Assembly: GCF_947492555.1 (NCBI RefSeq) | Contig: NZ_CANLNE010000007.1 | Span: 10,302-74,301, forward strand | Reading direction: 5' to 3' | From: an uncultured Roseobacter sp. | GTDB lineage: Bacteria; Pseudomonadota; Alphaproteobacteria; Rhodobacterales; Rhodobacteraceae | DNA length: 64,000 bases | Part shown: positions 8,709 to 23,823 of the stretch, one piece after another | How positions within the stretch are numbered: position 1 is the first letter of the stretch | Layout: each line of letters starts with the position of its first letter | The notes under the pieces: generated by a model | What the model saw: the letters and a program-made list of their open reading frames with translations, nothing else | What the model was told of the DNA's origin: nothing | Database searches by the model: none | Position numbers and translations under genes: made by a program

Positions 8709-9103
8709 TCCGAGTGGCTCCCATTTCCCTGACCGCGCTTACGCTGGTCTGCATGCCGCTGACGCTGAGCGCTCAAACCTCCCAAGGTGGGTTCGAAACC
8801 ATGGTGCAACCGACCGATGACCAAACAGAATGCAAAGCTCCGCGGCCGCCGAAGGACCTTGCGGAAACCGCATACATTCGTAACGGCTACCGCGCGATTT
8901 TGCGCATCATCGCTACAGAACATTGGAGGGAAACGGGTGGCTGCGACTGCCAGATCGCGGAGTTTTCGTGGCGGGAGGTCGTTGAACGTTCCGAAGAATT
9001 TGTCATCTCTGGCAACCCGCGCTTGCCGTTTGACGTCGTTAAATTGGACGAAATGGCAACTGAGTTCGAGGAAGCCCGCACTGCGGCATGCTCGGCAGAC
9101 TGA
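8705..9103 (+). CDS. exported hypothetical protein between virB5 and virB6 (132 aa)
   Basis: Signal peptide, four Cys in the mature region, overlapping start/stop codons on both sides. Confidence 0.7.
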   Translation: MIRVAPISLTALTLVCMPLTLSAQTSQGGFETMVQPTDDQTECKAPRPPKDLAETAYIRNGYRAILRIIATEHWRETGGCDCQIAEFSWREVVERSEEFVISGNPRLPFDVVKLDEMATEFEEARTAACSAD

Positions 9104-10116
9104 TGGGAATAATAAGGGACATACTCGAACAAGTCGATGACGCCATCGATACGGTTTCGCAGGATGGATTTGTCTCTTCTGCAGGTGCCGTCGGTGATGT
9201 TCTTTCGATTGGGTCAGCTGTCTTGCTCATCTTGATCGGCATCAATGTAGTGATGCAAATCAGACCGATGACCTTTGGAAGTGGTTTTGCTTTTGGAATA
9301 AAGATCGCTTTGATTGGAATATTTGCCCAGAGTTGGGACAACTTCCAAGTCGTGTACACGATTGTCACAGAAGTCCCAGAAAGTATTGGTGCATCGATTC
9401 TCGCGCTTACGGATTCCGGGAATGAAGCAGGGGTCTACGAAAGCCTCGACAGCATGGTGAACCGGATCACCGCCTATGGTGACGCCATCGGCGACCGTGC
9501 AGGCTGGGTGTTTGGCGCAGTGCTCGGAGCGATTTTCTTCGTTCTGTCCGCCATCTTCGCAGCCGTCACCGCCGGGATCATCGCCTATGCGCGTATCGTT
9601 TTCACACTGATGATCGTCATCGCGCCCTTCATGATCCTGACGTCGCTCTTCAAACCGACCCAATCGCTTTTCGAAGCCTGGACCCGTGCCACCATCGGCT
9701 ATGCCTTGATGCCAGTGGCCGCCGCCGGGGCCGCCGGGATCATCGTCGCCATCGCTGAGTCTATTGGCGACGCCTCCGCCGACCCGGACAACGTCGAAAC
9801 GGTCAGCCTTATCCTGCCGTTCCTCGTGATCTTGCTCCTGTCAGCTGGCGTGATGGCCGCCGTCCCGTTCATCGCATCCAACCTCACAGGTGTCATGGGC
9901 ATCGCCTCGAATGCGATCGGCCTGACGGGATTGGCGCGACGCGGCGTGGTCAACGCTGGAGAGTATGGCGCGGGTGGTGCCGGACGCATCTTGACCGGCA
10001 GGACACCCTACGAACTCCGGCGCGGTGTCAGCGGCGCGGCCACGAAGAGCAACGAATTGATCCGACGTACGCCTGCCGCCGCGCTCGCTCTGACAAAATC
10101 CTTTCGCAAGACATGA
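9103..10116 (+). CDS. virB6: VirB6/TrbL family inner membrane protein
   Basis: Multi-TM profile; PFMILTSLFKPTQSLFEAW motif; operon position. Confidence 0.88.
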   Translation: MGIIRDILEQVDDAIDTVSQDGFVSSAGAVGDVLSIGSAVLLILIGINVVMQIRPMTFGSGFAFGIKIALIGIFAQSWDNFQVVYTIVTEVPESIGASILALTDSGNEAGVYESLDSMVNRITAYGDAIGDRAGWVFGAVLGAIFFVLSAIFAAVTAGIIAYARIVFTLMIVIAPFMILTSLFKPTQSLFEAWTRATIGYALMPVAAAGAAGIIVAIAESIGDASADPDNVETVSLILPFLVILLLSAGVMAAVPFIASNLTGVMGIASNAIGLTGLARRGVVNAGEYGAGGAGRILTGRTPYELRRGVSGAATKSNELIRRTPAAALALTKSFRKT

Positions 10117-10778
10117 CCCGCGCGGAGTTCGATCAGGACGCCTTCGAGGCCGACTTCATCTTTGGTCCACGCAGGCGCGAGCGTTTTGCCTATTTTGTTG
10201 CCGCCGCTGGTGTGATCGTCGGTTTGGTCGGTTTCGTCGGGGCCGTTGCTTTGTTCCCGCTCAAGACGGTCGAGACCTTCGTCGTCGTCGTCGACAAGGA
10301 AACTGGCGAAATGGACCGCGTTGCCGCCGTCGAGGCGCTCAGCCTCGACGAAAGTGATGCGATCATTCAGGCCAACCTGGTCGCATACGTGGATGATCGT
10401 GAAACCTACGATCTGACCGACGGCGAAGAACGGATCAATTCGGTCCTTCAACGGTCTGACGAAGACGCCGCGCGCACTCTTCGCGATCTTTGGTCTTCGA
10501 CCAATCCTGACTATCCGATCTCAGTCTATGGACGGGACGCGAAGATCGATGTGGTCATCCGGTCTGTGAACCAGGTCGAACCCGGGGTGGCGCAGGTGCG
10601 GTTCATGAAAACGCTTCGAAAACCGCGTGACAACAGAACTGTGACACGGCCCTACGTGGCCACGCTGCGTTACGAGTTTCGCCCGGAAACCCGCCAGCGG
10701 TTGCAGCAGGTCTGGGCCAACCCGCTCGGGTTTGTCGTCACGTCTTACCGAGTCGACGCCGAAACGTTGGAGAACTGA
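10113..10778 (+). CDS. virB8: VirB8 family protein
   Basis: Single TM, PLKTVETFVVVVDKETG, YVDDRETYD, NPLGFVVTSY. Confidence 0.93.
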   Translation: MTRAEFDQDAFEADFIFGPRRRERFAYFVAAAGVIVGLVGFVGAVALFPLKTVETFVVVVDKETGEMDRVAAVEALSLDESDAIIQANLVAYVDDRETYDLTDGEERINSVLQRSDEDAARTLRDLWSSTNPDYPISVYGRDAKIDVVIRSVNQVEPGVAQVRFMKTLRKPRDNRTVTRPYVATLRYEFRPETRQRLQQVWANPLGFVVTSYRVDAETLEN

Positions 10779-10781
10779 GTG

Positions 10782-11513
10782 ATGAAGCTGCGCACCGCCC
10801 TGCCCTGTTTGCTTTTGGCTCTGGCACCTTCCCAAGTACTTTCGGAAGCCACGCCTCAGGGTGGGCCGAAAGATATCCGCATACGATATGCGGTCTACGA
10901 CGAGCAACAGGTGTTCCGTATCGAGACGGATCTGCGGCACTCGACCACGATCCAGTTTGGCGACGGGGAGCGGTTCGAGGCTGTAATCGTGGGAGACACC
11001 GAAAGCTTTCAGGTCGATCCAATTCCCGAGCTTGGCAATGTGCTGACGATCAAGCCGCATGTCCAAAATGCTTCGACCAACATGACCGTGATCACCAACC
11101 GTCGCAGCTATGCATTCCATCTCCGGGAAGGCTCGATTCCAGGTCGCACGGGCATGTTCTTCGAAGTGCGGTTTCGCTACCCGGGCGAAGAGCGCCTTGC
11201 CACACTGACGAACGCACAGCCCAAAGGGTTCGAGGCGCCGCGCAACTACAACTACAAGATCGCCGGAGAAGGCGACTTTCGCCCGGCCACGGTCTATGAC
11301 GACGGTCGGTTCACCTACTTCAGTTTTCCCGCAAGCGGACGGCAACCCGCGATCTTCAAGGCTGACAACCGCGGTCGCGAGCGCACGGTCAATTGGACCC
11401 AGAACGGCAACACCGTCCGCGTCTCCGGTGTCAACGACTTCTGGACACTGCGGCTGGGTGAAGAAGCGCTCTGCATCTACCGAGACGCCTCCGCGATATA
11501 CGTGAGCAACTGA
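10782..11513 (+). CDS. virB9: VirB9/TrbG family protein
   Basis: Signal peptide; DIRIRYAVYD, TNMTVITNRRSY, YDDGRFTYF, PAIF motifs. Confidence 0.93.
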   Translation: MKLRTALPCLLLALAPSQVLSEATPQGGPKDIRIRYAVYDEQQVFRIETDLRHSTTIQFGDGERFEAVIVGDTESFQVDPIPELGNVLTIKPHVQNASTNMTVITNRRSYAFHLREGSIPGRTGMFFEVRFRYPGEERLATLTNAQPKGFEAPRNYNYKIAGEGDFRPATVYDDGRFTYFSFPASGRQPAIFKADNRGRERTVNWTQNGNTVRVSGVNDFWTLRLGEEALCIYRDASAIYVSN

Positions 11514-11516
11514 GCC

Positions 11517-12938
11517 ATGTCGGATGATCCCAACTTTAAGAACCGGCTGGATACATTCAGCAAGGCAAAACGCTCCAAACCCAGATCGGGATTCGGTGTC
11601 ACTGCCCTGGCGCTCGCTCTCGGCCTCGGCGGTGCGGGCGTTGCGTATTTTCTGGCGACTGACTGGCAAGCGGATCCAGACCAACTAGAGACTTCGGATG
11701 TCGAGCCATTTCAGAATGACGGTATCTCAAATGGTGGTCGGCTGGAATTTCCTGCCGATGAAGCGGACCAGCGCGTGAACGATGCCCTTATCGCTGTGGA
11801 AGAAGCCCTTGAGGTCCCGGAACCGATCCCGCCCGCGGCTGAACCAAGCGCTGATATCCTCGCCGAACTGGCTGAGCTTCGCGAAGCACTCGCCGCTACT
11901 CAGCTCGAGCGAAACGCCGAGATTCAGTCAGCCGTCACCGAACTGCGCAATGCCTTCGCAGATCAAGCACAAGCCCTCGAAGCCGCTGTCGCGGAACGAG
12001 ACGACAAACTTGCGGCCCTGGAACGCGACAGCGAGACCCGGCTGAACTCTCTTCAGAGTCTTCTGGAGGCAGAACGAGCGCAACGCGAAGCCCTTGAAGC
12101 GGAACGCGCCAATGACGCCCTGATCCGCGACCAACAGCTTCTAGAGGAACGTCGCAGACAGGAAGAGGAGCAAAAGCGCCGCGAAGCCGAACAGCAGGCC
12201 GAACAACTATTGAGGGCCCAGATCCAGTCTCCTGCCGTAGTCTATTCGACAGGATCATCGGTCTCGGCACCAAACGCCAGCGGCCTGCAGAACGTCGCGC
12301 CAGGCGCAGATATCCCACTGAATGAAAACGAAGCCTATCTCAGAGGCGCGGCGCGGCCGCTTGAAATCGATGAGGCGGCGAAGATGGAGCGACCCGAACG
12401 CACTCTCGCGCAAGGGTCCGTCATACAGGCGGCACTGCAAACGGCCATCAACAGTGACCTGCCCGGAAACGTTGTCGCGGTCGTTGCGGAACCAGTTCAC
12501 GCGTTCGCCGGCGACGCAGTACTGATCCCGCGAGGCTCGCGGTTGTTTGGGCAATATCGATCGGGCGTGGAAGTGAACCAGAAACGCATCCTCATTCTAT
12601 GGACGCGCGTCCTCACGCCGGACGGTACGTCCATGCAGATCGCCTCTGTCGGGGGTGATCAACTCGGACGCTCCGGCCTGACCGGTTTGGTGGATACGAA
12701 GTTCGACGAACGCTTTGGAGGAGCTGCTCTGATATCGATTATCGGCGCGGCCCCCGCAGTCGCCGCCAATTCCACGGAAGACGAAGTGACCCGCGAGGTT
12801 CTGGAGGAGGTCGGCAATGATCTCGAAGACGCGACAAGTTCGGTGATCGCCGATCAGGTCTCGATCTCGCCAACCATCTACGTCGATCAGGGGGCCATGG
12901 TAACCGTACTGGTCGATAGGGACATCGTGATCTATTGA
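11517..12938 (+). CDS. virB10: VirB10/TrbI family protein
   Basis: N-terminal TM, coiled coil, C-terminal GSVIQAALQTAINSDLPG, IPRGSRLFG, GRSGLTG, PTIYVDQG. Confidence 0.93.
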   Translation: MSDDPNFKNRLDTFSKAKRSKPRSGFGVTALALALGLGGAGVAYFLATDWQADPDQLETSDVEPFQNDGISNGGRLEFPADEADQRVNDALIAVEEALEVPEPIPPAAEPSADILAELAELREALAATQLERNAEIQSAVTELRNAFADQAQALEAAVAERDDKLAALERDSETRLNSLQSLLEAERAQREALEAERANDALIRDQQLLEERRRQEEEQKRREAEQQAEQLLRAQIQSPAVVYSTGSSVSAPNASGLQNVAPGADIPLNENEAYLRGAARPLEIDEAAKMERPERTLAQGSVIQAALQTAINSDLPGNVVAVVAEPVHAFAGDAVLIPRGSRLFGQYRSGVEVNQKRILILWTRVLTPDGTSMQIASVGGDQLGRSGLTGLVDTKFDERFGGAALISIIGAAPAVAANSTEDEVTREVLEEVGNDLEDATSSVIADQVSISPTIYVDQGAMVTVLVDRDIVIY

Positions 12939-13921
12939 GCGAAGCGTCCCTCCCCTCCTCGTATCTCGAGCAATACCTAGAACCCTATCGCGATTTGATC
13001 CTGAAGGACGACATAATCGAGTTGGCGATCAACCCGGATGGTAATGTCTGGATCGAACGCCAAGGTGCCCACGCCATGGAGAGAATTGACCGCACTGTCG
13101 AGGTGGCCGCAGCAGCAAATCTGGCTGCCACATTGGTTGGTGATGCGCGCGCGCGAGTGTCGCAGAAGTCGCCTTTAGTTTCAGGTAAGATCGACTACCT
13201 TGAGCGCCCGCTACGCATCCAGGTTGTTGTGCCACCCGCGGTAGAACACGGCGCAGCGATCTCCATTCGGCTATTTGGCGTTGGTGGCCAGACAACCTTC
13301 GATCCTGAGTATCTGTTCGGGAAGCCGGTCTCGCTCGATGGTCGGCGGCAATCGAGACTCTCAGAAGTCGAGGAAATTGCAAAGAGCGACCTCTCCAGAG
13401 CCTTGTCGTCGCTCGTCCGCCATCGTTTGAATCTTTTGGTCAGCGGTGGGACGTCCACCGGCAAAACCACATTCGCAAGGCATTTGCTGAAATCGGTTCC
13501 GGACGACGAGAGGCTCATCACCATTGAAGACGCCTTCGAGCTTTTCCCTGGTCAGCCAAACACTGTTTGCCTGTTGTCTGAGCGTGTTCCGACATCTCAG
13601 CGGTCAACAAGTGCTCTGCTACAGGCGAGTTTGCGCATGCGCCCGGATCGCATCGTTGTGGGCGAGTTGCGCGGTGCTGAAGCGCTGACATATCTGGAAG
13701 CCATCAACACGGGTCACGGCGGATCGGTGACAACAATCCACGCCGAAACCGCTGAGCTTGCGATAGACCGGTTGGCGATCATGGTCTTGCAGGCCGGGAC
13801 ACCTTTGACCTTCGCCGAGGTACAGAGCTACATCCGACGGTCGATAGATGTCATTGTTCAGCTAGGACGCGACAGCGGTAAACGCGGCGTCTCAGAGGTC
13901 CTGGTTGTTGGGACACGCTGA
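12935..13921 (+). CDS. virB11: VirB11 family ATPase
   Basis: Walker A GGTSTGKTT, TIED, LRMRPDRIVVGELRG, NTGHGGSVTTIHA. Confidence 0.95.
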   Translation: MSEASLPSSYLEQYLEPYRDLILKDDIIELAINPDGNVWIERQGAHAMERIDRTVEVAAAANLAATLVGDARARVSQKSPLVSGKIDYLERPLRIQVVVPPAVEHGAAISIRLFGVGGQTTFDPEYLFGKPVSLDGRRQSRLSEVEEIAKSDLSRALSSLVRHRLNLLVSGGTSTGKTTFARHLLKSVPDDERLITIEDAFELFPGQPNTVCLLSERVPTSQRSTSALLQASLRMRPDRIVVGELRGAEALTYLEAINTGHGGSVTTIHAETAELAIDRLAIMVLQAGTPLTFAEVQSYIRRSIDVIVQLGRDSGKRGVSEVLVVGTR

Positions 13922-14032: not shown

Positions 14033-14626
14033 TTAATATGCCTCAGCTAAGCTCTGGGGTGTTGACAGCGCTTTGTCTGCTTCTTTTTTCGAGAACTCAT
14101 AAGTTTCGTCCGAATGACATTCGAGCAATCCTAGAGGCCCCAGCCCTGCATCGGATGTATAGCATTCCAGAAGCTTACGTACGATGACCGGTATCATCAT
14201 GCTTTGAGGTCCAAAGTGTTTTGCATCATGCGCGCTAAGCTTCATAACCAATCCGTTTCGCAGGTCAGCAACCGAAAACTGGGTCCACATAGATCGAAAC
14301 TCGCCCATGAAAAAATGCCATGCCTCAGCGCGTTCGGGATCCGCTGTCAACTGTTGGTGAATGAACCAAAGCGTAGGCACCTTGCGGAACTCAGGGTCCT
14401 TCTCGCGAAGAACCTCTCCAAAGCGTGTCAAAACAATCGGAAATCTTAGCTCAATGACACCAGATTTATGCAGCCATGAACGATACGCGGAAGCAAATGG
14501 CGCGCCGTATCTGAAGGGCTCTGCAAGCTCTTTGTCGCGAAGCGTTGGCTGTTTGAGTGCGTTAGCCAAGATACGAGACATGCGCTCTCTGTTCAATCCA
14601 AAATTACCGTGAAAAAATACAGTCAC
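14033..14626 (-). CDS. DUF4007-family protein (SspB/BrxA-like winged helix), short form (197 aa)
   Basis: GTG at 14626 with GGAGG RBS; RSWLHKSGVIE..LTRFG..DP....TLWFIHQQL....AEAWHFF matches the DUF4007 pattern as recalled. Confidence 0.7.
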   Translation of the reverse strand: MTVFFHGNFGLNRERMSRILANALKQPTLRDKELAEPFRYGAPFASAYRSWLHKSGVIELRFPIVLTRFGEVLREKDPEFRKVPTLWFIHQQLTADPERAEAWHFFMGEFRSMWTQFSVADLRNGLVMKLSAHDAKHFGPQSMMIPVIVRKLLECYTSDAGLGPLGLLECHSDETYEFSKKEADKALSTPQSLAEAY

Positions 14627-14730
14627 CCATTGATCCTCCGTATTAAGACTTGACGACAATCGAAGCACTCAATGCCAGTGCCCAGCAACCATGCCATCGC
14701 GAAGGCGAGCATATTCAAGAGGAAGAAAAA

Positions 14731-15798
14731 ATGACAGAGGAGCAAAGTTCGCCAGAGCTTGATCTGAGCGCTCTGGCGTTCGAGCAGAACCACCAAACCT
14801 TTCGCGCCCTCAACCACCAGATGTGGCAAATTCCACTCATCTCCATGACGCTGACAGGTGGATTATGGTTCGGGGTGTCCAAAGTAGATGGTTCACCATT
14901 CTTTCAAGTTGCGCTGTTGTTCCTGGCAACTGTCGGCAATGCCTGTTTATTTTTGGTGATTCAGCGTCTGCGCTACGTGATAGAGCAGACGCTCAATTGG
15001 TTAGAAACCCGTTCACCCGCAAACTTTGTTTCAGCCAAGGGCGATTGCTGGTACAACAGACCTCTGGTTGTGCGCCGGTCATTCCAGTCGATGCTCCTCC
15101 TCGCGTGTTTTACCAGCTTTAGCCTGCTGGTCATGACATGTTTTCAAATTGATTGGTCTCGGGTCGCGAATCCTATGACGAAAACTCCGGCATCCGCATA
15201 TTATGACCAACACGCGTTGGACTTGGCCGACAGCTATGAAGGCATCTCGGCGGATGCTGCGCACCCGGGTCTCGCGAATATCCTCAAGGAAGGCTTTGCA
15301 GACGCACGGGTGGATATTCTTGATGTAGGTGCCGGAACAGGCCGAGACTCGGCTTGGCTCGCTTTGCTCGGCCATCGGGTTGTTGCAGCAGAACCGTCGA
15401 GCGCCATGCTTCAGATCGCCCGCCACGCCCACAAAGACAGCTCCATTCAATGGGTCCGCGACGCCTTGCCCGGGTTGGACATCATTAGCAGCCATACAAG
15501 GAGGTTTGATATCATCGTTCTGAGCGCAGTTTGGATGCATATCTCCGAGGAGGACCGCCCGGCCGCTGTTTCTACGATTGCTTCGTTGTTGAAGCCTAGC
15601 GGTTTTGTCTACATCACCCTCCGTCTTGGTCCGGCAGACGCGGCACGCTCAATTTTTGAAGTATCTTTGGATGAGCTGACTGAACTGGCAGGAAGTAACG
15701 GCTTCCAGATACAATACCTTGAAACACGCCCTGACCTCCTCGGCCGCGACGAGATCACCTGGCAAAGCGTCCTGCTATCGACTGAGAGCAAAACTTGA
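14731..15798 (+). CDS. 3-TM membrane domain fused to a class I SAM-dependent methyltransferase
   Basis: Three hydrophobic segments in the first ~145 aa, no stop codon, then motif I ILDVGAGTGRDS, VVAAEPS, FDIIVLSAVWMHI. Confidence 0.8.
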   Translation: MTEEQSSPELDLSALAFEQNHQTFRALNHQMWQIPLISMTLTGGLWFGVSKVDGSPFFQVALLFLATVGNACLFLVIQRLRYVIEQTLNWLETRSPANFVSAKGDCWYNRPLVVRRSFQSMLLLACFTSFSLLVMTCFQIDWSRVANPMTKTPASAYYDQHALDLADSYEGISADAAHPGLANILKEGFADARVDILDVGAGTGRDSAWLALLGHRVVAAEPSSAMLQIARHAHKDSSIQWVRDALPGLDIISSHTRRFDIIVLSAVWMHISEEDRPAAVSTIASLLKPSGFVYITLRLGPADAARSIFEVSLDELTELAGSNGFQIQYLETRPDLLGRDEITWQSVLLSTESKT

Positions 15799-15906
15799 TC
15801 AATCGGCTCTGAATAGCCCATAACGTGGCCGTGCTGGGCTAGGGAAAAAGCACAAGAAAGACACATCTGACTTCCATGTTGCGTGTGCATGTTGCACCAT
15901 CGTTTC

Positions 15907-17799
15907 ATGAGCAAGTCTTTAAGATCTCTGACCTTTCCTTCAGATGTGGATACATCTCTAGATGACATCGATCAGGTGTTAATGAATCCATGCCTTGCTC
16001 ACTCAGTGTTCTATGATCGAGGTGTCGGGTACTTTACGTCGAGTTGGCTTCAACGTGTTTCAAGCGGCATAGCAGAGTTTGCGGGGAACGGCGGCAAGAT
16101 GCGGCTGATCACCAGTCCAAAGCTCAAGCCCGAAGATTGGGCAGCGATCAAACAGGGTGCGGACGCAATCCAAGACGACGTCCTGCTTCAGGCACTTAGA
16201 GACGAAGTTGATGAGCTCGAAAAAAGCGCAAGTTCCAAGCCTGTTCAGACACTATCATACATGATCGCGGAAAAGCTTCTGACCATCCGTATTGCTATAA
16301 CGACAGGCAAGTTGAGTGGAGACTACCATCCCAAACTTGGCATATTTCGTGATAGTGAGGATGAAGCGGTTGTCTTCCACGGTTCTCAGAACGAAACCGA
16401 GCAAGGCAGGCGCAATTTCGAGAGCTTAGATGTTTTCTTGAGTTGGGCTGACGCGCGCGACGCGTCACGTGTTCAGTCCCATCGAAACCGCTTTGAAAGA
16501 CTGTGGAACAACATTGATCCGAATGTCCAATGCTTCGATATCCCCGAGGCTATACGTCGGAATATCGCTCAGTTCTACCGGCCAAAAAGCGATTCGAAAG
16601 CAAAGGTCCTCAAAGACACAAGATGGCGCCACCAAGATGAGGCAGTTGAAAGGTTTCTAGCAGAGAAGAACGGCGTGCTCGAAATGGCAACCGGCACCGG
16701 TAAAACCCGGACAGCACTACGGATCATAGACAAGCTCACAACTCGCGATCTGGTCGATACTGTCATCGTGACCATGCGCGGCAACGACCTCCTAGAACAA
16801 TGGTTTCAGGCGCTTGTCACGGACTGCAACTGCAGGGTCTATCGGCAATTTGGCTCGCATCACGAAGGAGCGCGGTTTGTTGCGAGCCGCGGCAGAAGGC
16901 TACTCCTTGTTTCGCAGCACCACTTGCCGGAGTTTCTTTCGAGTGTTGAAGGGACAGCAGAGAGAACGCTGATTGTATGTGATGAAGTTCATGGATTTGG
17001 ATCGCCGGCACAGGTGACCACGCTTTCTGGTCTGGTGTCACCACTCAGCTACCGGTTAGGGCTGAGTGCGACCCCTGAAAGGGAGTATGATCAAGCTGGA
17101 AACGATTTCATTGAGAACGAAGTCGGCCCCATCATTTTCAAGTTTGAAATTGAAGATGCTATTCAACGCGGTATTTTGTGCGAATTTGATTACACGGCAT
17201 TAGAGTATGAATTGTCGGATGACGATCGGGCCGAAATCCGGAAAATCATCAAGCGCCACCATGCCCGTAGGGCGTCAGGTGAAGTCGTGAGCGACGAAGC
17301 ACTCTATCGTGACATTTCTCGTGTGCGAAAGGTTACGATAGAGAAGTTGGAACCTTTCAATGAGCATCTCACGAGCAAACCAGAGCTCTATGAACGCTCC
17401 CTGATCTTTGTAGAAACACGCAAATACGGTGAGCTTGTGCAAAGACTTCTTATGGATGCAGGAATTGTGTTCGGAACATATTACGAAGGTGATGAAGCGC
17501 AGCGCTTGTTGGATTTTGCGAACGGGCGACTGGACTGTCTGGTAAGTTGCCACCGGCTATCAGAAGGCATTGACATTAAGTCCGTCAAGAACATCGTTCT
17601 GTTTTCTTCAGCCCGGGCGAAACTGGAAACAATTCAGAGGCTTGGTCGTTGCCTGCGTACAGATCCCAACAACGAGGAGAAACGCGCGCATGTGCTAGAC
17701 TTTGTAGACTTTGGCTGTGATGACGATAGCGACAGCACAGACGTAAAGCGATATGACTGGCTGCGGAGCCTTAGCGCAACGCGAAAGGAAGAACAGTGA
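15907..17799 (+). CDS. pbeA: PLD-like nuclease + SF2 DEAD/DEAH helicase; PbeA-like (Dnd-associated restriction helicase)
   Basis: HPKLGIF...GSQNET PLD-type motif; MATGTGKT, DEVH, LSATP, QRLGRCLR; symbol assigned from architecture and synteny with dnd genes. Confidence 0.8.
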   Translation: MSKSLRSLTFPSDVDTSLDDIDQVLMNPCLAHSVFYDRGVGYFTSSWLQRVSSGIAEFAGNGGKMRLITSPKLKPEDWAAIKQGADAIQDDVLLQALRDEVDELEKSASSKPVQTLSYMIAEKLLTIRIAITTGKLSGDYHPKLGIFRDSEDEAVVFHGSQNETEQGRRNFESLDVFLSWADARDASRVQSHRNRFERLWNNIDPNVQCFDIPEAIRRNIAQFYRPKSDSKAKVLKDTRWRHQDEAVERFLAEKNGVLEMATGTGKTRTALRIIDKLTTRDLVDTVIVTMRGNDLLEQWFQALVTDCNCRVYRQFGSHHEGARFVASRGRRLLLVSQHHLPEFLSSVEGTAERTLIVCDEVHGFGSPAQVTTLSGLVSPLSYRLGLSATPEREYDQAGNDFIENEVGPIIFKFEIEDAIQRGILCEFDYTALEYELSDDDRAEIRKIIKRHHARRASGEVVSDEALYRDISRVRKVTIEKLEPFNEHLTSKPELYERSLIFVETRKYGELVQRLLMDAGIVFGTYYEGDEAQRLLDFANGRLDCLVSCHRLSEGIDIKSVKNIVLFSSARAKLETIQRLGRCLRTDPNNEEKRAHVLDFVDFGCDDDSDSTDVKRYDWLRSLSATRKEEQ

Positions 17800-18002
17800 C
17801 GAGTCCAAAAAAGAGAACCGCGAGCGAAGAAATCGCACTTGCGATTGCCGAAGCGGCGCAAGGCGTCTCGGTGAGCGTCACAGCTCAGACATCGACTGAG
17901 CGACTGCTGATTTCAACGCTGGATGTCATGCCGCCCACTCACAGGATCGAAAACACAATTGACGTCATACTTGAAGAGGACAGTTTGAGTGACAAGCAAT
18001 AA
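17796..18002 (+). CDS. small helical protein between helicase and ATPase; PbeB-like
   Basis: 68 aa, GTGA overlap with the helicase stop, overlaps the ATPase start. Confidence 0.6.
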   Translation: MTSPKKRTASEEIALAIAEAAQGVSVSVTAQTSTERLLISTLDVMPPTHRIENTIDVILEEDSLSDKQ

Positions 18003-19920
18003 CGTTCTTCTTCTTGGCTGGAATGCAAAGGGGCTTCGTGGCTATTTGCGCGATGCAAAAATTGCCCTAAAACCGGACAAGTATCGTCATGTCTTAGTTC
18101 AGATGCCAAACGGAACCGGCAAAACGACAACGATGGCTCTTTTGCGCTCAGCGCTTACGGGTCAACTAGATCCTTCGCTGTCGATCTCCTCACTTCAGGC
18201 TGACCGAACGACAAAGGAGGGACACTTTGAACTTCACTTATCAGTCTATGGCGAACGGCTATCCATTCGGCTCGAATGCGATTTCGAGATGGGGCGACAC
18301 TATTTCTACACAACCACCGTCGAAGCCGGACGGCAGAATGGGCACCTGCTGAGTACAGTCGACCCCGCATTGGCGGACGCTCTTGAGAGAAGTATCGAGC
18401 TGTTTGTGTTCGACGGCGAACTTGCGCAAAACATGCTTAAGGACGGTGCTGCTGCTGCGGACAGAGCTATTGAAGCCCTTTACAAGACCGATGCTTTTGA
18501 AGACCTGGTGAACAAAATTGGTGTCCTCAAAGAGAATCGAAAAAAGCTGAATAAGGATATCACCACCGCATCTGAGCAATCGGCGGTCAATCGGCTTGAA
18601 CGTGAGTATGAAGAGGCCAAAGAGATACTTGCGAAACTCACGCAAGAGAAGGACGGCTTGGATCGATCTCTTGCGAAGATCGACCGTCGGACCGCAGAGA
18701 TAACGGACCGCCTCGAAGAGCTCGGCCTCGAGGATCAAGCATTTAAGAATCGTCAAAAAGACATCGAAGATCGTGACCAAAAGGCGAGAAATGATATTTC
18801 GCGTTTCGCAACCGAAGCGGTTTCAAGTTTCAGATTGCCGCTAAGCCTTCATTCCCGTGTTGGAGAAAGACTTACAACACTCAACAACACATTGGAAACT
18901 AGGCGGCTTCCGCGCTCGTCAAAATCGTTCTTTGAGGAGCTCGCTACCAAGAAAAATTGTATATGCGGTGAAGAGATCGATGAGGCAAAGCGGAAATACA
19001 TTCTCTCACACGCAGACGATCATCTTGGTGATGAGCAAGTCCAAGTCATTAACGATATTAAGTACAAGCTCAAAGACGGATTCGACCGCCGTTGGTTTTC
19101 TGCCGTCGTCAATGACCTTAGTGAAGCTGAGGATCGTTTGACCAGCATAGCTCAGGAACGCGCTAGGCTGGATATCGAGAAGGCAGAAGCAGGCATGGAG
19201 GAGGTCGAAAGGCTTACATCCGAGCGAGAAGCACTTCAGGCAGAGCAAGCGCGGAAGTCTCAGGCTCTGCAATTCTTGACGGAGGTACCAATCTCGATAC
19301 ACGAGGCTGACTGGAAGAGAAACCTTCCAGCATGCAAGGAAGAGGAAGGCAAGCGCCGTAAGGCTTTCGAAATGGCTAGCGGCAATAACCGATACTTCAC
19401 AGCCGCGGACAAGTTAATTCGTGCAACTCAACGTGCTCGCAAGCTCGCGAAAGAACGGCTACAAGTGTTCGTGAAAGACCGAACAAACTCCCAACTCGAA
19501 AAAATCTTGGATAGCGAGATCATTCGTGTTTCCAGGATCGATGGCCGCCTTCATTTGGTGAATGAAGAAAACCTCCCGAAAGACAGCGCCAGCGAGGGCC
19601 AAAAACTTGCGGTGTGCTACGCATTTCTGACAGCCCTTTTGGCAGAAGCCCCGGCGCGCTTGCCGTTCATTGTAGATTCCCCTGCAGTCTCTCTGGACCT
19701 TGTTCTCCGGCAAAACGTTGGGGCTCTCATTCCCAAGATATTCGATCAATTAATTGTCTTCGTTATCTCCAGTGAGCGTGAAGGTTTCGCAGACTCGTTT
19801 GAGAAACGAACAGACACGCAGTTTGTCACTGCCTCAATCAATCAAGCTGACGGATCCGTTCTCATAGATGAAAGCAAGAGCACCTTCTTCCAATTCCAAA
19901 GCGGAGCGGTGTCCTCATGA
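17989..19920 (+). CDS. pbeC: Rad50/SbcC-like ABC ATPase with CxC hook; PbeC-like
   Basis: Walker A MPNGTGKTT, long coiled coils with central CICG, signature ASEGQK, Walker B FIVDSP; symbol assigned from synteny. Confidence 0.8.
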   Translation: MTSNNVLLLGWNAKGLRGYLRDAKIALKPDKYRHVLVQMPNGTGKTTTMALLRSALTGQLDPSLSISSLQADRTTKEGHFELHLSVYGERLSIRLECDFEMGRHYFYTTTVEAGRQNGHLLSTVDPALADALERSIELFVFDGELAQNMLKDGAAAADRAIEALYKTDAFEDLVNKIGVLKENRKKLNKDITTASEQSAVNRLEREYEEAKEILAKLTQEKDGLDRSLAKIDRRTAEITDRLEELGLEDQAFKNRQKDIEDRDQKARNDISRFATEAVSSFRLPLSLHSRVGERLTTLNNTLETRRLPRSSKSFFEELATKKNCICGEEIDEAKRKYILSHADDHLGDEQVQVINDIKYKLKDGFDRRWFSAVVNDLSEAEDRLTSIAQERARLDIEKAEAGMEEVERLTSEREALQAEQARKSQALQFLTEVPISIHEADWKRNLPACKEEEGKRRKAFEMASGNNRYFTAADKLIRATQRARKLAKERLQVFVKDRTNSQLEKILDSEIIRVSRIDGRLHLVNEENLPKDSASEGQKLAVCYAFLTALLAEAPARLPFIVDSPAVSLDLVLRQNVGALIPKIFDQLIVFVISSEREGFADSFEKRTDTQFVTASINQADGSVLIDESKSTFFQFQSGAVSS

Positions 19921-20441
19921 GTTCTGAACTGGTCACACGTGCACGTGGGTTTGTGCTCCACGAAGCCGCACGCGGCTACTTTGGCTACATCGATCAAAGA
20001 ATGTTCAGCAGAACCAGATCGTCAGATGCAGCGCGCGGTTCGCTTATTCTCTTTGATGCCTATTATGCAGGACTCATGCTGGGCCTCACCTACAGGAAAA
20101 CAGGTACTCCTGAGATGCTTGATCGGGCGGGCATATTCATTCAGACCTATCCGAATGAATATGAGCCGTACCGCGAGTACATTGCAGGCTTGCTCGTTGA
20201 TGCAGAGGTTACTGCTCTTCATTCTGAAGATTACTCCGAACAACAGCTTGAGAAGTCGATCGCGAAGCTTCTTCAAGTCGCCTCTCCTACGCGCTTGTCC
20301 CCGGAAGGCATGCACATCCTGAATCTGTATGCCGCGGGAGGCTTTGAGCTTCTTCGTAGCAATATGGGCGCCAAGCCGTCTGATCCGTCAAATTTCTTAA
20401 TTCGCTACCAAGCTTTACTCGAAAATGAAACTGGGCAGTAA
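19917..20441 (+). CDS. hypothetical protein with DndE-like character; PbeD-like (174 aa)
   Basis: ATGA overlap with the ATPase; C-terminal NLYAAGGFELL resembles the YAxGGxExL motif of dnd-associated DndE-like proteins. Confidence 0.65.
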   Translation: MSSELVTRARGFVLHEAARGYFGYIDQRMFSRTRSSDAARGSLILFDAYYAGLMLGLTYRKTGTPEMLDRAGIFIQTYPNEYEPYREYIAGLLVDAEVTALHSEDYSEQQLEKSIAKLLQVASPTRLSPEGMHILNLYAAGGFELLRSNMGAKPSDPSNFLIRYQALLENETGQ

Positions 20442-20447
20442 CTTTTG

Positions 20448-22274
20448 ATGGAACGAGTCTCGGACCTACTCTGCCAGCGCGCGACACCGACTACCGTATC
20501 TGGTCTTTTTGGCGGAATGACTCTCTTTCGCGTGCCAGCGTACCAACGTGCATATGAGTGGACGGATGAGCAGATAGACGCCTTCATCGACGATGTTCGC
20601 AGGTGTTGGCAAAAGCGTATCAACGGTGAACGTGAGCGACACTTTTTTGGATCCGTGGTAACCGCGCCTCGAGACCCTGGCGGTCTGGTTCGCCCACGAC
20701 GGGATGTGATAGACGGGCAGCAGCGGTTTGCCACTTTTCTCCTTTTCGTGGCGGCGCTACGGCAACACTGTTTGCTGGCAGCGGCCGAGTTTGGTGCGGA
20801 TGATGCACAGCGCGGAACCGCCTTGAGCACAATGGCGGAAACTCTCCAGTTCCGTTTCATCATGAGCAGAGATCTCGATTTCATGGAGGCCAGGGACGTT
20901 TATCCCCTGACCTTGAATGAGACCGATGACGCCTATTTCAAAGCATTGTTGCGAGGCGATCATGTAGAAGAAGTAGCTCAATCTCACTACCTGCTAAAGG
21001 CTGCGTTTGACGCATGTTTTGCAATGCTTCAGGGGCATCGCGAGGCGACCGGGTCCACCGCGCTTGAATTCAATGCGCTGAACCAATTCTACGCCAGTGC
21101 TCTCGAAGACTGGGAAGTCGTTCATATTGAGGCTAATGCACCGGAGCACGCCAGCCTCATTTTCAGGGTGTTGAACAACAGAGGTCTTCCCGTCAGCGAT
21201 TGTGATCTTCTCCGGGCAACCACCATGGAACGGGCAGAACAAAGGCTGGAACCAGCAGAGCGAGATGAGCTATCTGATGCTTGGAAGGAAATCGGTGGCA
21301 TTGCCGAAAACCCCGACACCTATCTTCAATTGGCATATCAGACTCGTACGGGAAAACGCTTCAACACAGCGAGGACATCAACAGAGTTTGAAGCGATGCA
21401 TTTTGAGGAGCTTTCAAGCGGTGATCTTCTCGGTGCAGCAGAGGCAAGGTCACTTCTTCAGAGTGTGCAAACCCTGAAGACCGACATGGTAATGATGAAG
21501 GCTTTGACCGGTGGCGACATCGCCGGTGGGGGTCTGCAATTGACACCGGTCATGGCTCATCGACTGGCATTCACCCTAGGAGACCTAAAGCAGCACTGGA
21601 TACTCCCCCTGGTCTGCGCATCGCGAAGCCTCAATGCCGATCATCGCGAGCGACTGCTTTGTGTTTTGGAGCGGTTTGCATTCCGGTATGGGGTCTTGGC
21701 GCGCGCGCGGATTGCGGAATACGATCGCAGGATGGGGCCCATTATTACACTTCTGAACACATCGCCAGCTGACTATCGATTGCCCGAAGTCGAAGCGATT
21801 TTGACGGATCTTCTAGATAGATACGCGACCAGAGAGGCGATGGAGCGTCAATTAGATGGGCTCGAGTACGAGCGACACAAGAAAGAGTTGAAGTACATTC
21901 TAGCCATGAGCGAATTCATGTCGGCGTGGTATGATGGCCAGGCGAACGGTCGACCAACCGTTCATGCGCCCAATGTACCGATCGATATCCGCGCAATGAC
22001 CCTGGAGCATATCAGTCCGCAGAACCCTGAAGAGGCAGGGGCAGAAATGCTACCTCACTTGCATAAACTTGGAAACCTTACCTTGCTCAGCCAAGATGAG
22101 AATGATCGTGCCGGAAACAGGCCTTTCGTTGACAAGAAGCCGGTCCTTCAAGGTTCTCGCCTGTCGATCAATCAGAACATCGCCGAGGAGGATAAATGGG
22201 GGGCCGAACAGGCCATCGCGCGACAAGACGCATTGCGAGATCAAGCGATGAGAGTATTTGATTTAACGTTTTGA
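20448..22274 (+). CDS. DUF262 (DGQQR) + DUF1524 HNH nuclease; GmrSD/SspE-like
   Basis: VPAYQRAYEW, IDGQQR, FRVLNNRG; C-terminal LEHISPQ...LGNLTLL..EN. Confidence 0.88.
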   Translation: MERVSDLLCQRATPTTVSGLFGGMTLFRVPAYQRAYEWTDEQIDAFIDDVRRCWQKRINGERERHFFGSVVTAPRDPGGLVRPRRDVIDGQQRFATFLLFVAALRQHCLLAAAEFGADDAQRGTALSTMAETLQFRFIMSRDLDFMEARDVYPLTLNETDDAYFKALLRGDHVEEVAQSHYLLKAAFDACFAMLQGHREATGSTALEFNALNQFYASALEDWEVVHIEANAPEHASLIFRVLNNRGLPVSDCDLLRATTMERAEQRLEPAERDELSDAWKEIGGIAENPDTYLQLAYQTRTGKRFNTARTSTEFEAMHFEELSSGDLLGAAEARSLLQSVQTLKTDMVMMKALTGGDIAGGGLQLTPVMAHRLAFTLGDLKQHWILPLVCASRSLNADHRERLLCVLERFAFRYGVLARARIAEYDRRMGPIITLLNTSPADYRLPEVEAILTDLLDRYATREAMERQLDGLEYERHKKELKYILAMSEFMSAWYDGQANGRPTVHAPNVPIDIRAMTLEHISPQNPEEAGAEMLPHLHKLGNLTLLSQDENDRAGNRPFVDKKPVLQGSRLSINQNIAEEDKWGAEQAIARQDALRDQAMRVFDLTF

Positions 22275-22276
22275 GT

Positions 22277-23449: not shown

Positions 23450-23823
23450 GCCGCATCTCCTGCCAGAAGCCTTGCTGCATCAGCTGGCGAGTTTATGCGA
23501 ATTGCGATGTAACCAATGCCGCGGTCGATATGGCATCTCAGGCGTCGCATTAGGTCTTCGTCATCTAATTCTGCTCCGCTTTGCCCTTGCTCGACAAGTA
23601 TCAGCATTGAAAGGAATATCGGTTGGTCGGATCCAAAGAGCGTATAGGCGTTAAATTCCTGCCCATTTTCCTCCGGTGGAACCATGTCGCCAACTGGTCC
23701 TGTCTCGAGTGAGGCGGTCAGAGCCATCCGGCACAGGAGGTTCGGTGTGAGGCCGCTGCGTTGACGCAACATACGGAGACGGCCAGTTGCCTCAGTTGAT
23801 ACTCTGAGCTTTGTAAAATGCAT
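23446..23823 (-). CDS. dndE: DNA phosphorothioation protein DndE
   Basis: LRVSTEATGRLRMLRQRSGLTPNLLCRMAL, RCHIDRG; downstream of dndD. Confidence 0.9.
   Translation of the reverse strand: MHFTKLRVSTEATGRLRMLRQRSGLTPNLLCRMALTASLETGPVGDMVPPEENGQEFNAYTLFGSDQPIFLSMLILVEQGQSGAELDDEDLMRRLRCHIDRGIGYIAIRINSPADAARLLAGDAA

What the first reader, a model, noticed from the sequence alone, without database searches (positions are those of the whole stretch)
14731..15798. 3-TM membrane domain fused in frame to an intact SAM-dependent methyltransferase at the head of the defence operon
Seen: ~145 aa with three hydrophobic segments run without a stop into a class I MTase with intact SAM-binding motifs; an in-frame ATG at 15175 marks the domain junction. 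PT modification does not use SAM. Inference: this may be a sensor-effector, with the SAM-binding domain detecting SAM depletion (phages encode SAM lyases) or a phage product and gating a membrane-disrupting domain. It could also be a membrane-tethered small-molecule or protein methylase.
Basis: partly seen in the sequence, partly recalled or inferred. Interest (0 to 1): 0.72.

Follow-up and report, generated by a model that had tools for sequence, protein, structure and literature searches.

The report
Membrane-methyltransferase module tied to DNA phosphorothioation
The gene encodes an undescribed, highly conserved three-helix membrane domain fused to an intact SAM methyltransferase, and this pair (fused or as two adjacent genes) turns out to be a recurrent, so far unnamed companion of every main type of DNA phosphorothioation system, although its substrate is still unknown.

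Summary
ORF 14731-15798 (+) encodes 355 aa: three hydrophobic helices (residues 31-50, 56-77, 117-139), then a class I SAM methyltransferase (MTase) with an intact GxGxG motif. ATG 15175 (M149) sits at the junction.

The fusion is not a recent stop loss. About 50 of 80 species-level loci carry the fused form, which traces to roughly one ancient fusion. Deeper clades have the membrane (TM) gene and the MTase gene adjacent or overlapping.

The new result is the context. About 71 of 80 loci lie within 10 kb of phosphorothioation (PT) genes, at a median of 118 bp. These are dndBCDEA/pbe, a compact dndC-dndD-dndE/FtsK cluster, or sspABCD/sspFGH. In one clade the two genes sit inside the operon, between sspC and sspD.

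The TM domain matches no Pfam or NCBIfam family and no PDB fold. It is more conserved than the MTase. It also pairs with HIT hydrolases and an RNase T domain.

The MTase looks like a small-molecule enzyme, not a DNA methylase.

Best reading: a facultative PT-system accessory enzyme working at the membrane. The substrate is inferred only. The predicted membrane topology conflicts with a cytoplasmic MTase and remains unresolved.

The parts
14731..15798 (+). TM-MTase gene (355 aa), the finding itself
   Evidence: Translation. Pfam hits. 674 homologues, the 120 best listed mostly about 350 aa long and covering 93-100% of the query.
14731..15174 (+). N-terminal conserved membrane domain, residues 1-148. 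It is an unnamed family with the signature FRxLNxxMWQIPxIxMTLTGGLWFG.
   Evidence: No Pfam or NCBIfam match. In the 51-sequence alignment A1 the invariant residues are R25, N28, M31-L36 and M39-F47 apart from T42, then R79, R81 and S129. The wider 38-sequence alignment A2, which includes the split forms, keeps R25, N28, P35, M39, L41-W46, R79, R81 and S129. AF2 pLDDT is 85 and no PDB fold matches; the best Foldseek E-value is 0.23.
14821..14880 (+). Hydrophobic helix 1 (residues 31-50). It is weakly hydrophobic and carries the invariant polar/Gly motif.
14896..14961 (+). Hydrophobic helix 2 (residues 56-77), with invariant N70
14962..15078 (+). Basic loop (residues 78-116; family mean of 6.3 K+R). 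It begins with the invariant R79-x-R81.
15079..15147 (+). Hydrophobic helix 3 (residues 117-139)
15175..15177 (+). In-frame ATG (M149) at the domain junction. It aligns with the start region of the separate MTase genes in the split forms.
   Evidence: A Met is kept at -8/-9 from the YYD motif in 26 of 44 fused genes, and GTG/TTG in 9 more. The window's own copy has no good SD.
15175..15798 (+). Class I SAM-dependent methyltransferase domain. Motif I lies at 15322-15348.
   Evidence: Pfam. Foldseek best hit 3h2b, E 2.8e-12. Alignment to 3h2b across motif I. Positions kept in at least 90% of the 65 partners.
14033..14668 (-). Short DUF4007/SspB-like gene, divergent from the TM-MTase gene
   Evidence: Pfam DUF4007 2.1e-10 and PADLOC SspB 1.5e-7. 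The same neighbour occurs in L001 and L015.
15883..22274 (+). Pbe-like/CxC-ATPase arm downstream. It comprises a PbeA PLD-helicase (15883-17799), a 68-aa ORF (17796-18002), a PbeC-like ATPase (17989-19920), a 174-aa gene (19917-20441) and a GmrSD/'Orf5' nuclease (20445-22274).
   Evidence: PADLOC PbeA 3.5e-199, PbeC 3.2e-21, Orf5 1093 bits
22277..28290 (-). dndA, dndE, dndD, dndC and dndB phosphorothioate modification genes
   Evidence: PADLOC DndA 6e-124, DndE 3e-43, DndD 3.2e-185, DndC 4.9e-195. TIGR03233 DndB 4.4e-121.

Best explanation
The gene encodes an inner-membrane protein built from two partners that belong together. One is a previously unnamed three-helix membrane domain. The other is a catalytically competent class I SAM-dependent methyltransferase of the small-molecule/peptide type.

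Shown here: the pair is an old module, fused once and otherwise encoded as adjacent, often overlapping genes. It is a facultative accessory of DNA phosphorothioation systems of every main type: dndBCDEA with or without pbe, dndC-dndD-dndE/FtsK, and sspABCD with or without sspFGH. In this window it sits at the head of the pbe-like arm of a dnd island carried by a conjugative element.

Inferred, odds roughly 1 in 3 for this specific step: the enzyme methylates a PT-related, probably anionic, substrate at the membrane. Candidates are a sulfur-bearing nucleotide or by-product such as nucleoside 5'-phosphorothioates, PT dinucleotides, thiophosphate or sulfide. That would make it a housekeeping or safeguard function for cells that keep sulfur in their DNA, not an abortive-infection pore. 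The membrane domain would then supply or remove the substrate or product, or place the enzyme where DNA crosses the membrane. In other loci HIT hydrolases take the methyltransferase's place. HIT enzymes are known to desulfurate nucleoside phosphorothioates, which fits a shared nucleotide-thiophosphate substrate class.
For: Fusion conserved:
- There are 674 homologues. The best 120 are nearly all 334-410 aa at 45-78% identity with at least 93% coverage.
- 49-50 of 80 genome loci are fused.
- On the TM-domain tree the fused forms make one clade (SH-aLRT 89), and the fused/split label needs only 2 changes.

Split forms:
- They have overlapping or adjacent TM and MTase genes.

PT linkage:
- All 6 loci looked up by identity lie next to PT genes.
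- About 71 of 80 loci have PT genes within 10 kb. The median distance to the nearest is 118 bp; 53 loci are within 500 bp. PADLOC confirmed SspA/B/C/D/F/G/H.
- The PT-type label needs 4 changes on the tree, against about 24 to 28 when the labels are shuffled.
- In L076 (Rhodophyticola porphyridii) the order is sspB, sspC, TM, MTase, sspD, sspFGH. The TM gene overlaps sspC and the MTase gene overlaps the TM gene; sspD starts 17 nt after the MTase stop. Ten further loci have the TM gene 26-75 bp downstream of sspC with sspD following, about 840-900 bp after the TM-domain match in most.
- In Rhizobium phaseoli pRphaN831b the gene overlaps the stop of the 'DNA phosphorothioation-associated DGQHR protein 1' gene.

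Active enzyme:
- Pfam and fold hits support a class I MTase.
- Y158, D198, G200, G202, G204, R205, D206, H270, R306 and W344 are kept in at least 60 of 65 partners.

HIT pairing:
- It is seen in L070, L071, L006, L089 and L113.
- HINT1 converts dGMPS to dGMP with release of H2S (PMC8775712).

Not a phage gene.
Against: - No substrate was tested. The sulfur-nucleotide idea rests on neighbourhood and chemistry only.
- Topology conflict. The positive-inside rule puts loop 78-116 in the cytoplasm. RNase T-TM fusions need the N-terminus inside, and relatives carry Thr/Ser/Pro-rich tails after helix 3. Together these predict that a domain fused after helix 3 faces the periplasm, where SAM is not known to be available. 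Yet the split methyltransferases have no signal peptide.
- The module is absent from about half of the dndC-dndD-dndE/FtsK loci sampled (present in 8 of 19) and from the well-studied E. coli, Salmonella and Vibrio systems (my knowledge). It is therefore not needed for PT modification itself.
- The very strong conservation of polar residues in helix 1 would also suit a channel or effector.
- Methyltransferase-only homologues occur outside PT contexts, for example in Azospirillum.
- One TM+HIT pair (L113) shows no PT gene in the 13 kb held.
Confidence: 0.6

Rival explanations
1. Sensor-effector. The SAM-binding domain reports SAM depletion or a phage product, and the membrane domain then opens or disrupts the membrane as an abortive-infection effector for the PT system.
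For: - The membrane domain is the most conserved part of the protein, with invariant polar and glycine residues inside helix 1 (N28, Q33, P35, T40, G43, G44, W46). That is more than an anchor needs.
- The domain is modular and combines with several soluble domains.
- It sits in defence islands on mobile elements.
- In the compact dndC-dndD-dndE/FtsK islands no other restriction gene is evident.
Against: - The pair is embedded between sspC and sspD in a modification operon.
- Conserved residues lie outside the SAM motif in both methyltransferase subtypes.
- The other partners (HIT, RNase T) are enzymes, not known sensors.
- The module is facultative.
- No similarity to SLATT or other described pore modules was found in Pfam or PDB.
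- There are no toxicity data.
Confidence: 0.15
2. Regulator or tether. The methyltransferase methylates a PT-system protein, or the membrane domain anchors the PT machinery (the FtsK/HerA-type ATPases of DndE-FtsK or SspH, or SspC) at the membrane where foreign DNA enters.
For: - The gene lies immediately next to SspH, DndE-FtsK/HerA or SspC in many loci.
- Structural neighbours include peptide/protein N-terminal methyltransferases (CypM, NTMT1).
- A long cytoplasmic two-helix stalk is predicted (helices 8-51 and 56-94).
Against: - The neighbour differs between clades (sspA, sspC, sspH, dndB, DGQHR-1, HNH, PbeA, DndE-FtsK), so no single protein partner is constant.
- No complex prediction could be run.
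Confidence: 0.15
3. A DNA base methyltransferase that adds a second epigenetic mark beside PT. This would resemble the cytosine methylases that some DndD/CxC-DndE cores recruit.
For: - PMC10853773 reports cytosine methylases in CxC-DndE neighbourhoods.
- The PADLOC mad2 model, for the N6-methyltransferase of MADS, hits residues 190-329 at 9.3e-15.
Against: - There is no (D/N/S)PP(Y/F/W) motif, no PCQ/ENV motif and no target-recognition domain. After strand 4 the sequence reads SAVWMH.
- All listed sequence and fold neighbours with an assigned function act on small molecules, lipids, tRNA bases or peptides; none is a DNA methyltransferase.
- The mad2 hit covers only the Rossmann core.
Confidence: 0.06
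4. An unrelated cargo gene that merely travels in the same mobile islands.
For: - A few loci lack PT genes and sit among AbiE, recombinase or IS66 genes.
- Methyltransferase-only relatives occur in ordinary metabolic neighbourhoods.
Against: - About 71 of 80 loci are PT-linked, at a median of 118 bp.
- The linkage holds across three PT system families and at least 6 gene orders.
- Subclades track the PT type, and overlapping reading frames join the genes to ssp and DGQHR genes.
Confidence: 0.04

Closest known systems
Generic class I small-molecule SAM methyltransferases (Pfam Methyltransf_25/11/12/23; e.g. Cg3271 PDB 3h2b, TehB, glycine-sarcosine and phosphoethanolamine N-methyltransferases)
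   Same: Rossmann fold, GxGxG motif I, an acidic residue after strand 2, and an N-terminal 'YYDxxA' lid helix. Foldseek E-values are 1e-12 to 1e-10.
   Different: It is preceded by a dedicated, conserved three-helix membrane domain. It has its own set of conserved residues (Y158, H270, R306, W344). Its genomic context is restricted to PT systems. It reaches no NCBIfam equivalog cut-off.
'DNA phosphorothioation-associated putative methyltransferase' (an NCBI family name, annotated after dndA-E in Rhodococcus qingshengii RL1; PMC8416521)
   Same: The concept is the same: a putative methyltransferase that recurs beside dnd genes.
   Different: No significant NCBIfam hit other than generic methyltransferase models was obtained for the window protein or for split partners. 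It therefore appears to be a different family. I could not fetch a member of the named family to compare directly, and I do not know whether that family has a membrane partner.
Known accessory and restriction partners of PT systems (DndB, DndFGH, SspE, SspFGH, PbeABCD, DndI)
   Same: Encoded next to the modification genes, facultative, and exchanged between system types.
   Different: None of these is a membrane protein plus SAM methyltransferase. The module is not mentioned in the main text of the 2024 reappraisal of Dnd neighbourhoods or of the SspFGH paper.
Membrane-anchored thiol S-methyltransferases (human TMT1/METTL7; also TPMT and TehB). This is an analogy recalled from memory, apart from the listed hits.
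   Same: A class I methyltransferase held at a membrane by N-terminal hydrophobic helices, acting on sulfur, selenium or tellurium nucleophiles. There are weak hits to TehB (27.7 bits, above Pfam's 20.4), TPMT (24.9 bits, below 26) and PDB 9h0d 'thiol methyltransferase 1' (8e-5).
   Different: These are Rossmann-core similarities only. The anchor is unrelated and S-methylation is not shown.
Transmembrane effector modules of conflict systems (e.g. SLATT)
   Same: A small, modular, helical membrane domain that occurs alone or fused to varied soluble domains in defence islands.
   Different: No sequence or fold match. The partners here are enzymes. In one clade it is embedded in a modification operon.

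Membership tests
Class I (Rossmann-fold) SAM-dependent methyltransferase | Motif I GxGxG, with an acidic residue ending strand 2 | tested here: met
   LDVGAGTGRD (198-206) and VVAAEPS (E221). G200, G202 and G204 are invariant in 65 of 65 partners. Aligned with the same motif of 3h2b.
Class I (Rossmann-fold) SAM-dependent methyltransferase | Alternating beta/alpha (Rossmann-type) fold like that of solved methyltransferases | tested here: met
   The AF2 model (pLDDT above 90 over the domain) has alternating strands and helices at residues 195-350. Foldseek gives probability 1.0 to many SAM methyltransferases.
Class I (Rossmann-fold) SAM-dependent methyltransferase | SAM binding and methyl transfer | not testable with these tools
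   Needs a biochemical assay.
DNA methyltransferases (N6A/N4C or C5) | Catalytic motif IV, (D/N/S)PP(Y/F/W) or PCQ plus ENV, and a target-recognition domain | tested here: not met
   None of these motifs is in the sequence. The region after strand 4 reads SAVWMH. No extra domain follows the Rossmann core. No DNA methyltransferase appears among the listed sequence or fold neighbours.
NCBI 'DNA phosphorothioation-associated putative methyltransferase' | Match to that NCBIfam model above its cut-off | tested here: not met
   The NCBIfam scans of the whole protein (E up to 0.001) and of the MTase domain and split partners (E up to 1) list only generic methyltransferase models, all far below their cut-offs. 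For the window's MTase domain only the best 25 of 28 weak hits are displayed.
TehB / TPMT-type chalcogen or thiol methyltransferases | Match above curated cut-offs to the family models | tested here: inconclusive
   Pfam TehB scores 27.7 bits (cut-off 20.4) but is overlapped by stronger generic families. TPMT scores 24.9, below 26. NCBIfam TehB equivalogs score 24-33 bits against cut-offs of 218-303.
Core PT-system proteins with PADLOC models (Dnd, Ssp, Pbe) | Hit to a Dnd, Ssp or Pbe model | tested here: not met
   The only PADLOC hit is mad2 (Rossmann core, 9.3e-15).
PT-system accessory gene (operational definition) | Conserved adjacency to PT genes across system types and lineages | tested here: met
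   About 71 of 80 loci; median distance 118 bp; Dnd, DndCD-E/FtsK and Ssp contexts; located inside the operon in L076.
PT-system accessory gene (operational definition) | Genome-level co-occurrence (PT genes present whenever the module is present) | not tested
SLATT or other described TM effector domains | Sequence or fold match of the membrane domain | tested here: not met
   A Pfam scan of residues 1-150 at E up to 10 found only noise. Foldseek against the PDB gave a best E of 0.23, to generic helical bundles.

The most novel reading that the evidence does not exclude
The module is a dedicated 'phosphorothioate sulfur handler'. The methyltransferase S-methylates phosphorothioate sulfur, either on nucleotides or dinucleotides released from PT-DNA or on the DNA backbone itself. 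S-alkylated phosphorothioates are labile, so this would erase or cleave PT sites or detoxify thio-nucleotides. HIT hydrolases would do the equivalent desulfuration in other loci, and the conserved membrane domain would dispose of the product. That would be the first enzyme known to act on the PT mark after it is written.
Probability: 0.15. Interest if true: 0.85.

Novelty: new variant of a known kind. Interest (0 to 1): 0.62.

Why it matters
Phosphorothioation is the only known natural DNA backbone modification. Its systems have been dissected as writers (DndA-E, SspA-D) and readers or restrictors (DndFGH, SspE, SspFGH, Pbe).

A membrane-bound SAM methyltransferase module now follows all of these system types, and in one clade it sits between sspC and sspD. 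It points to an unstudied step. That step could be handling of sulfur-bearing nucleotides, turnover of the mark, a link to the membrane where foreign DNA enters, or a new effector.

The work also defines a new, sharply conserved membrane domain with a clear sequence signature that can be used to annotate several hundred proteins now labelled only 'class I SAM-dependent methyltransferase' or 'hypothetical'.

The function is directly testable in laboratory strains with existing PT assays.

Tried and rejected
- Recent stop-loss fusion: rejected.
- Known family for the membrane domain: nothing found in Pfam at E up to 10, NCBIfam at E up to 1, the PDB profile search, or Foldseek on a domain-only AF2 model.
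- DNA methyltransferase: rejected on motifs and neighbours. The PADLOC mad2 hit covers the Rossmann core only.
- Obligate fourth component of the compact dndC-dndD-dndE/FtsK system: rejected. It is present in 8 of 19 loci, some of which have short flanks.
- Phage-borne counter-defence gene: rejected. Only methyltransferase-only partial hits occur in 6 phage records, and there is one hit among viral contigs.
- Other fusion partners in the 195-621 aa range: essentially all are methyltransferases. RNase T and unknown N-terminal domains are rare.
- Literature: no description was found in the 2024 Dnd reappraisal (main text and the one supplement held), the SspFGH paper, or full-text searches.
- Loci without PT genes: examined. 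They lie in rearranged mobile islands, and in one an IS66 transposase gene lies directly downstream, where the methyltransferase gene sits in related loci.
- Membrane topology: could not be settled from sequence. AF2 coordinates are not exposed, so the relative placement of the two domains could not be read.
There is therefore no genome-wide co-occurrence count and no RNA evidence for the operon structure.
Full report
**1. What is in the window**

The + strand ORF ending at 15798 reads through from 14731 without a stop and gives 355 residues. The frame is open back to a TTG at 14650. ATG 14731 is the better start: it is preceded by GAGGA at a suitable distance, and homologues start at the same residue.

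Residues 31-50, 56-77 and 117-139 are hydrophobic. AlphaFold2, run on a 51-sequence alignment, gives mean pLDDT 88. It models helices 8-51, 56-94 and 113-139, followed by an alternating beta/alpha (Rossmann-type) domain.

Residues 190-307 hit Methyltransf_25, _11, _12 and _23 well above Pfam's cut-offs. Motif I is LDVGAGTGRD. ATG 15175 is M149, in the 13-residue linker between helix 3 and the methyltransferase.

**2. Surroundings in the window**

- Divergent on the left is a short DUF4007/SspB-like gene (14033-14668, minus strand).
- Downstream on the same strand, 85 bp on, come:
  - a PbeA-type PLD-helicase,
  - a 68-aa ORF,
  - a PbeC/CxC-type ATPase,
  - a 174-aa gene,
  - a GmrSD-type nuclease.
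- Converging from the right are dndA, dndE, dndD, dndC and dndB.
- The whole island lies between virB11-like (12935-13921) and virD4/relaxase genes (28487-32334). It is therefore cargo of a conjugative element.
- The nearest public copy is a contig of an uncultured Roseobacter isolate (L009).

**3. The fusion is old, and split forms exist**

A word-indexed search found 674 homologues. The best 120 are almost all 334-410 aa and cover 93-100% of the query at 45-78% identity.

A scan of one genome per species, seeded only with two peptides of the membrane domain, gave 80 loci. Of these:
- 49-50 carry the fused gene.
- At least 19 carry a membrane-protein gene of 130-230 aa followed by a separate methyltransferase gene of about 205-220 aa, usually overlapping or a few bases apart.
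- A few carry the membrane gene without a methyltransferase.

On a tree of the membrane domain the fused forms make one clade (SH-aLRT 89). The fused/split label needs only two changes. The split forms show that the two parts are partners rather than a chance read-through.

A Met is kept 8-9 residues before the YYD motif that opens the methyltransferase in 26 of 44 fused genes, across both deep subclades. Nine further genes have GTG or TTG at some position within the 16 codons upstream. It aligns with the start region of the separate methyltransferase genes. Many relatives have GGAG/GAGG/AGGA 5-15 nt upstream, but the window's copy does not. It is either a relic of the ancestral start or a live internal start.

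**4. The key new result: linkage to phosphorothioation systems**

All six homologues looked up by identity (45-76% identical) lie beside PT genes, in different arrangements.

Among the 80 loci, tblastn with Dnd, Pbe and Ssp queries found PT genes within 10 kb in about 71. The median gap to the nearest one is 118 bp, and 53 loci are within 500 bp.

- Relatives above about 45% identity sit beside dndBCDEA with or without pbe, or beside a compact dndC-small protein-dndD-dndE/FtsK cluster.
- The fused clade at about 40% identity and the split clades sit mostly beside sspABCD and/or sspFGH. PADLOC confirmed SspA, B, C, D, F, G and H with E-values from 1e-87 to 0. Three split or TM-only loci (L060, L064, L071) lie beside dnd genes instead.
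- On the tree the PT-type label needs 4 changes, against about 24 to 28 for shuffled labels.

The immediate neighbour varies: sspA (divergent), sspH (same strand, 62-113 bp), sspC and sspD, dndB, the DGQHR-1 protein, an HNH(-HIT) nuclease, PbeA, or DndE-FtsK (convergent).

The most telling case is the complete genome of Rhodophyticola porphyridii. The order there is sspB, sspC, TM gene, methyltransferase gene, sspD, sspF, sspG, sspH. The TM gene overlaps sspC and the methyltransferase gene overlaps the TM gene; sspD starts 17 nt after the methyltransferase stop. Ten other loci have the TM gene 26-75 bp downstream of sspC with sspD following, about 840-900 bp after the TM-domain match in most.

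On Rhizobium phaseoli plasmid pRphaN831b the gene overlaps the stop of 'DNA phosphorothioation-associated DGQHR protein 1'. It faces a dndC-sp-dndD-dndE/FtsK-tusA operon.

The few loci without PT genes lie among AbiE, recombinase or IS66 genes, or on very short contigs.

The module is facultative. Of 19 loci found with the DndE-FtsK protein as query, 8 carry it.

It is essentially absent from phage records.

**5. The membrane domain**

It is the best conserved part of the protein. In the 51-sequence alignment the invariant positions include F24, R25, L27, N28, M31-L36, M39-L41, G43-F47, N70, R79, R81, F118, Q119 and S129. Across the wider 38-sequence set that includes the split forms, R25, N28, P35, M39, L41-W46, R79, R81 and S129 stay invariant.

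It matches nothing in Pfam at E up to 10, or in NCBIfam at E up to 1. A domain-only AF2 model (pLDDT 85) finds only generic helical bundles in the PDB, best E 0.23.

An exhaustive HMMER search with residues 1-150 found 224 cluster representatives:
- many proteins of 130-190 aa, which I take to be the split form;
- the methyltransferase fusions;
- rare proteins with the domain at the C-terminus of an RNase T exonuclease (P0192) or of unknown domains (P0184, P0240).

A HIT hydrolase gene is a recurrent alternative partner:
- It follows the TM-only gene in L070 and the X-TM gene in L113.
- It converges on the RNase T-TM gene in L089.
- It ends the dndBCDE operon in L071.
- It is fused to the HNH nuclease next to the TM-methyltransferase in L006.

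**6. The methyltransferase**

All listed sequence and fold neighbours with an assigned function act on small molecules, lipids, tRNA bases or peptides. They include Cg3271, CypM, bacillithiol methyltransferase, TehB, glycine-sarcosine and phosphoethanolamine methyltransferases, and PmtA. No DNA-methyltransferase motif or target-recognition domain is present.

Across 65 fused and split partners of two subtypes ('SAVWMH' and 'WACASLLH'), these residues are kept in at least 60 of 65: Y158, A162, D198, G200, G202, G204, R205, D206, G214, A219, A266, H270, G291, G300, R306 and W344. I read this as a working enzyme with a defined pocket. The conserved Arg and His residues are compatible with an anionic substrate (inference).

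**7. How it most likely works**

Shown: it is a PT-linked, two-part membrane/methyltransferase module.

Inferred: an active methyltransferase acting at the membrane on something that only exists, or only matters, in cells with phosphorothioated DNA. What all host systems share is the mark itself and its sulfur chemistry, not any one protein.

HIT enzymes desulfurate nucleoside 5'-phosphorothioates with release of H2S (PMC8775712). From my own knowledge, the HIT enzyme aprataxin also removes AMP from adenylated DNA ends. Their interchange with the methyltransferase beside the same membrane domain suggests a shared substrate class of thio- or adenyl-nucleotides.

I therefore favour handling of PT-derived sulfur nucleotides or by-products, at roughly one in three for that specific step.

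**8. Unresolved**

- The family-wide charge pattern has 6.3 K+R in loop 78-116.
- The RNase T-TM fusions have their soluble domain at the N-terminus.
- The four-helix split variants end in basic tails.
- Other members carry Thr/Ser/Pro-rich tails after helix 3.

Together these predict N-in, C-out for the three-helix form. That would put a fused methyltransferase in the periplasm. Yet the separate methyltransferases have no signal peptide. Either helix 3 does not span the membrane, or an internally initiated free methyltransferase matters, or the biology is stranger than assumed.

**9. Comparison with what is known**

NCBI already names a different family 'DNA phosphorothioation-associated putative methyltransferase' (PMC8416521). 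The idea of a dnd-linked methyltransferase is therefore not new. But the window protein hits no such model, and I found no description of the membrane domain or of the Ssp linkage.

I rate it a new variant of a known kind: PT systems with an undescribed accessory module.

Genome-level co-occurrence and transcription are therefore untested.

Noticed in passing
window 9088-13921 and 28487-32334: The whole PT island (14033-28290) is inserted between virB-type T4SS genes (VirB11-like at 12935-13921) and the VirD4 coupling protein and relaxase genes. It is therefore cargo inside the transfer region of a conjugative element.
   Followed up: partly
window 14033-14668 (-): A short DUF4007/SspB-like protein (about 197-211 aa against about 290 for SspB) lies divergent from the TM-MTase, with no sspC or sspD nearby. 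The same short gene sits beside the orthologue in Ruegeria atlantica (L001) and in L015 (57% identity). It therefore looks like a kept gene rather than debris.
   Followed up: partly
window 15175; L010-L059 at the equivalent position: The junction Met is kept in 26 of 44 fused genes. It often has GGAG/GAGG/AGGA 5-15 nt upstream, for example AAGGAG in L019 and L044. This suggests a possible internal start that would make a free cytoplasmic methyltransferase. The window's own copy lacks the SD-like sequence.
   Followed up: partly
L070:10489-10845, L113:11280-11642, L089:1376-1768, L071:4557-4913, L006:11842-12261: HIT-family hydrolase genes or domains recur next to the same membrane domain or at the end of dnd operons. 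In L007 and its relatives the HIT part of the HNH-HIT protein has lost its HxHxH motif.
   Followed up: partly
L005, L008, L013-L018, L090-L108, L111: A compact alphaproteobacterial PT cluster consists of dndC, a small protein, dndD and a DndE-FtsK/HerA fusion. It sometimes includes a TusA-like gene and has no dndA or dndB. A DGQHR-1 protein preceded by a small membrane protein is often nearby.
   Followed up: partly
L085:10475-11953: An IS66-family transposase gene lies directly downstream of the TM-only gene and overlaps its 3' end, in the position where the methyltransferase gene lies in the related locus L083.
   Followed up: no
window 25760-25844 and 27205-27379: The longest ORFs of dndC/dndD and of dndB/dndC overlap by 85 and 175 nt. 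PADLOC matches DndC only from residue about 73, so the real dndC start is probably further downstream than the longest ORF.
   Followed up: no
Escherichia phage phi458, OP434518.1:3040-3516 (hit H26): A phage 'hypothetical protein' is 41% identical to the methyltransferase domain alone (residues 197-354), with no membrane domain.
   Followed up: no
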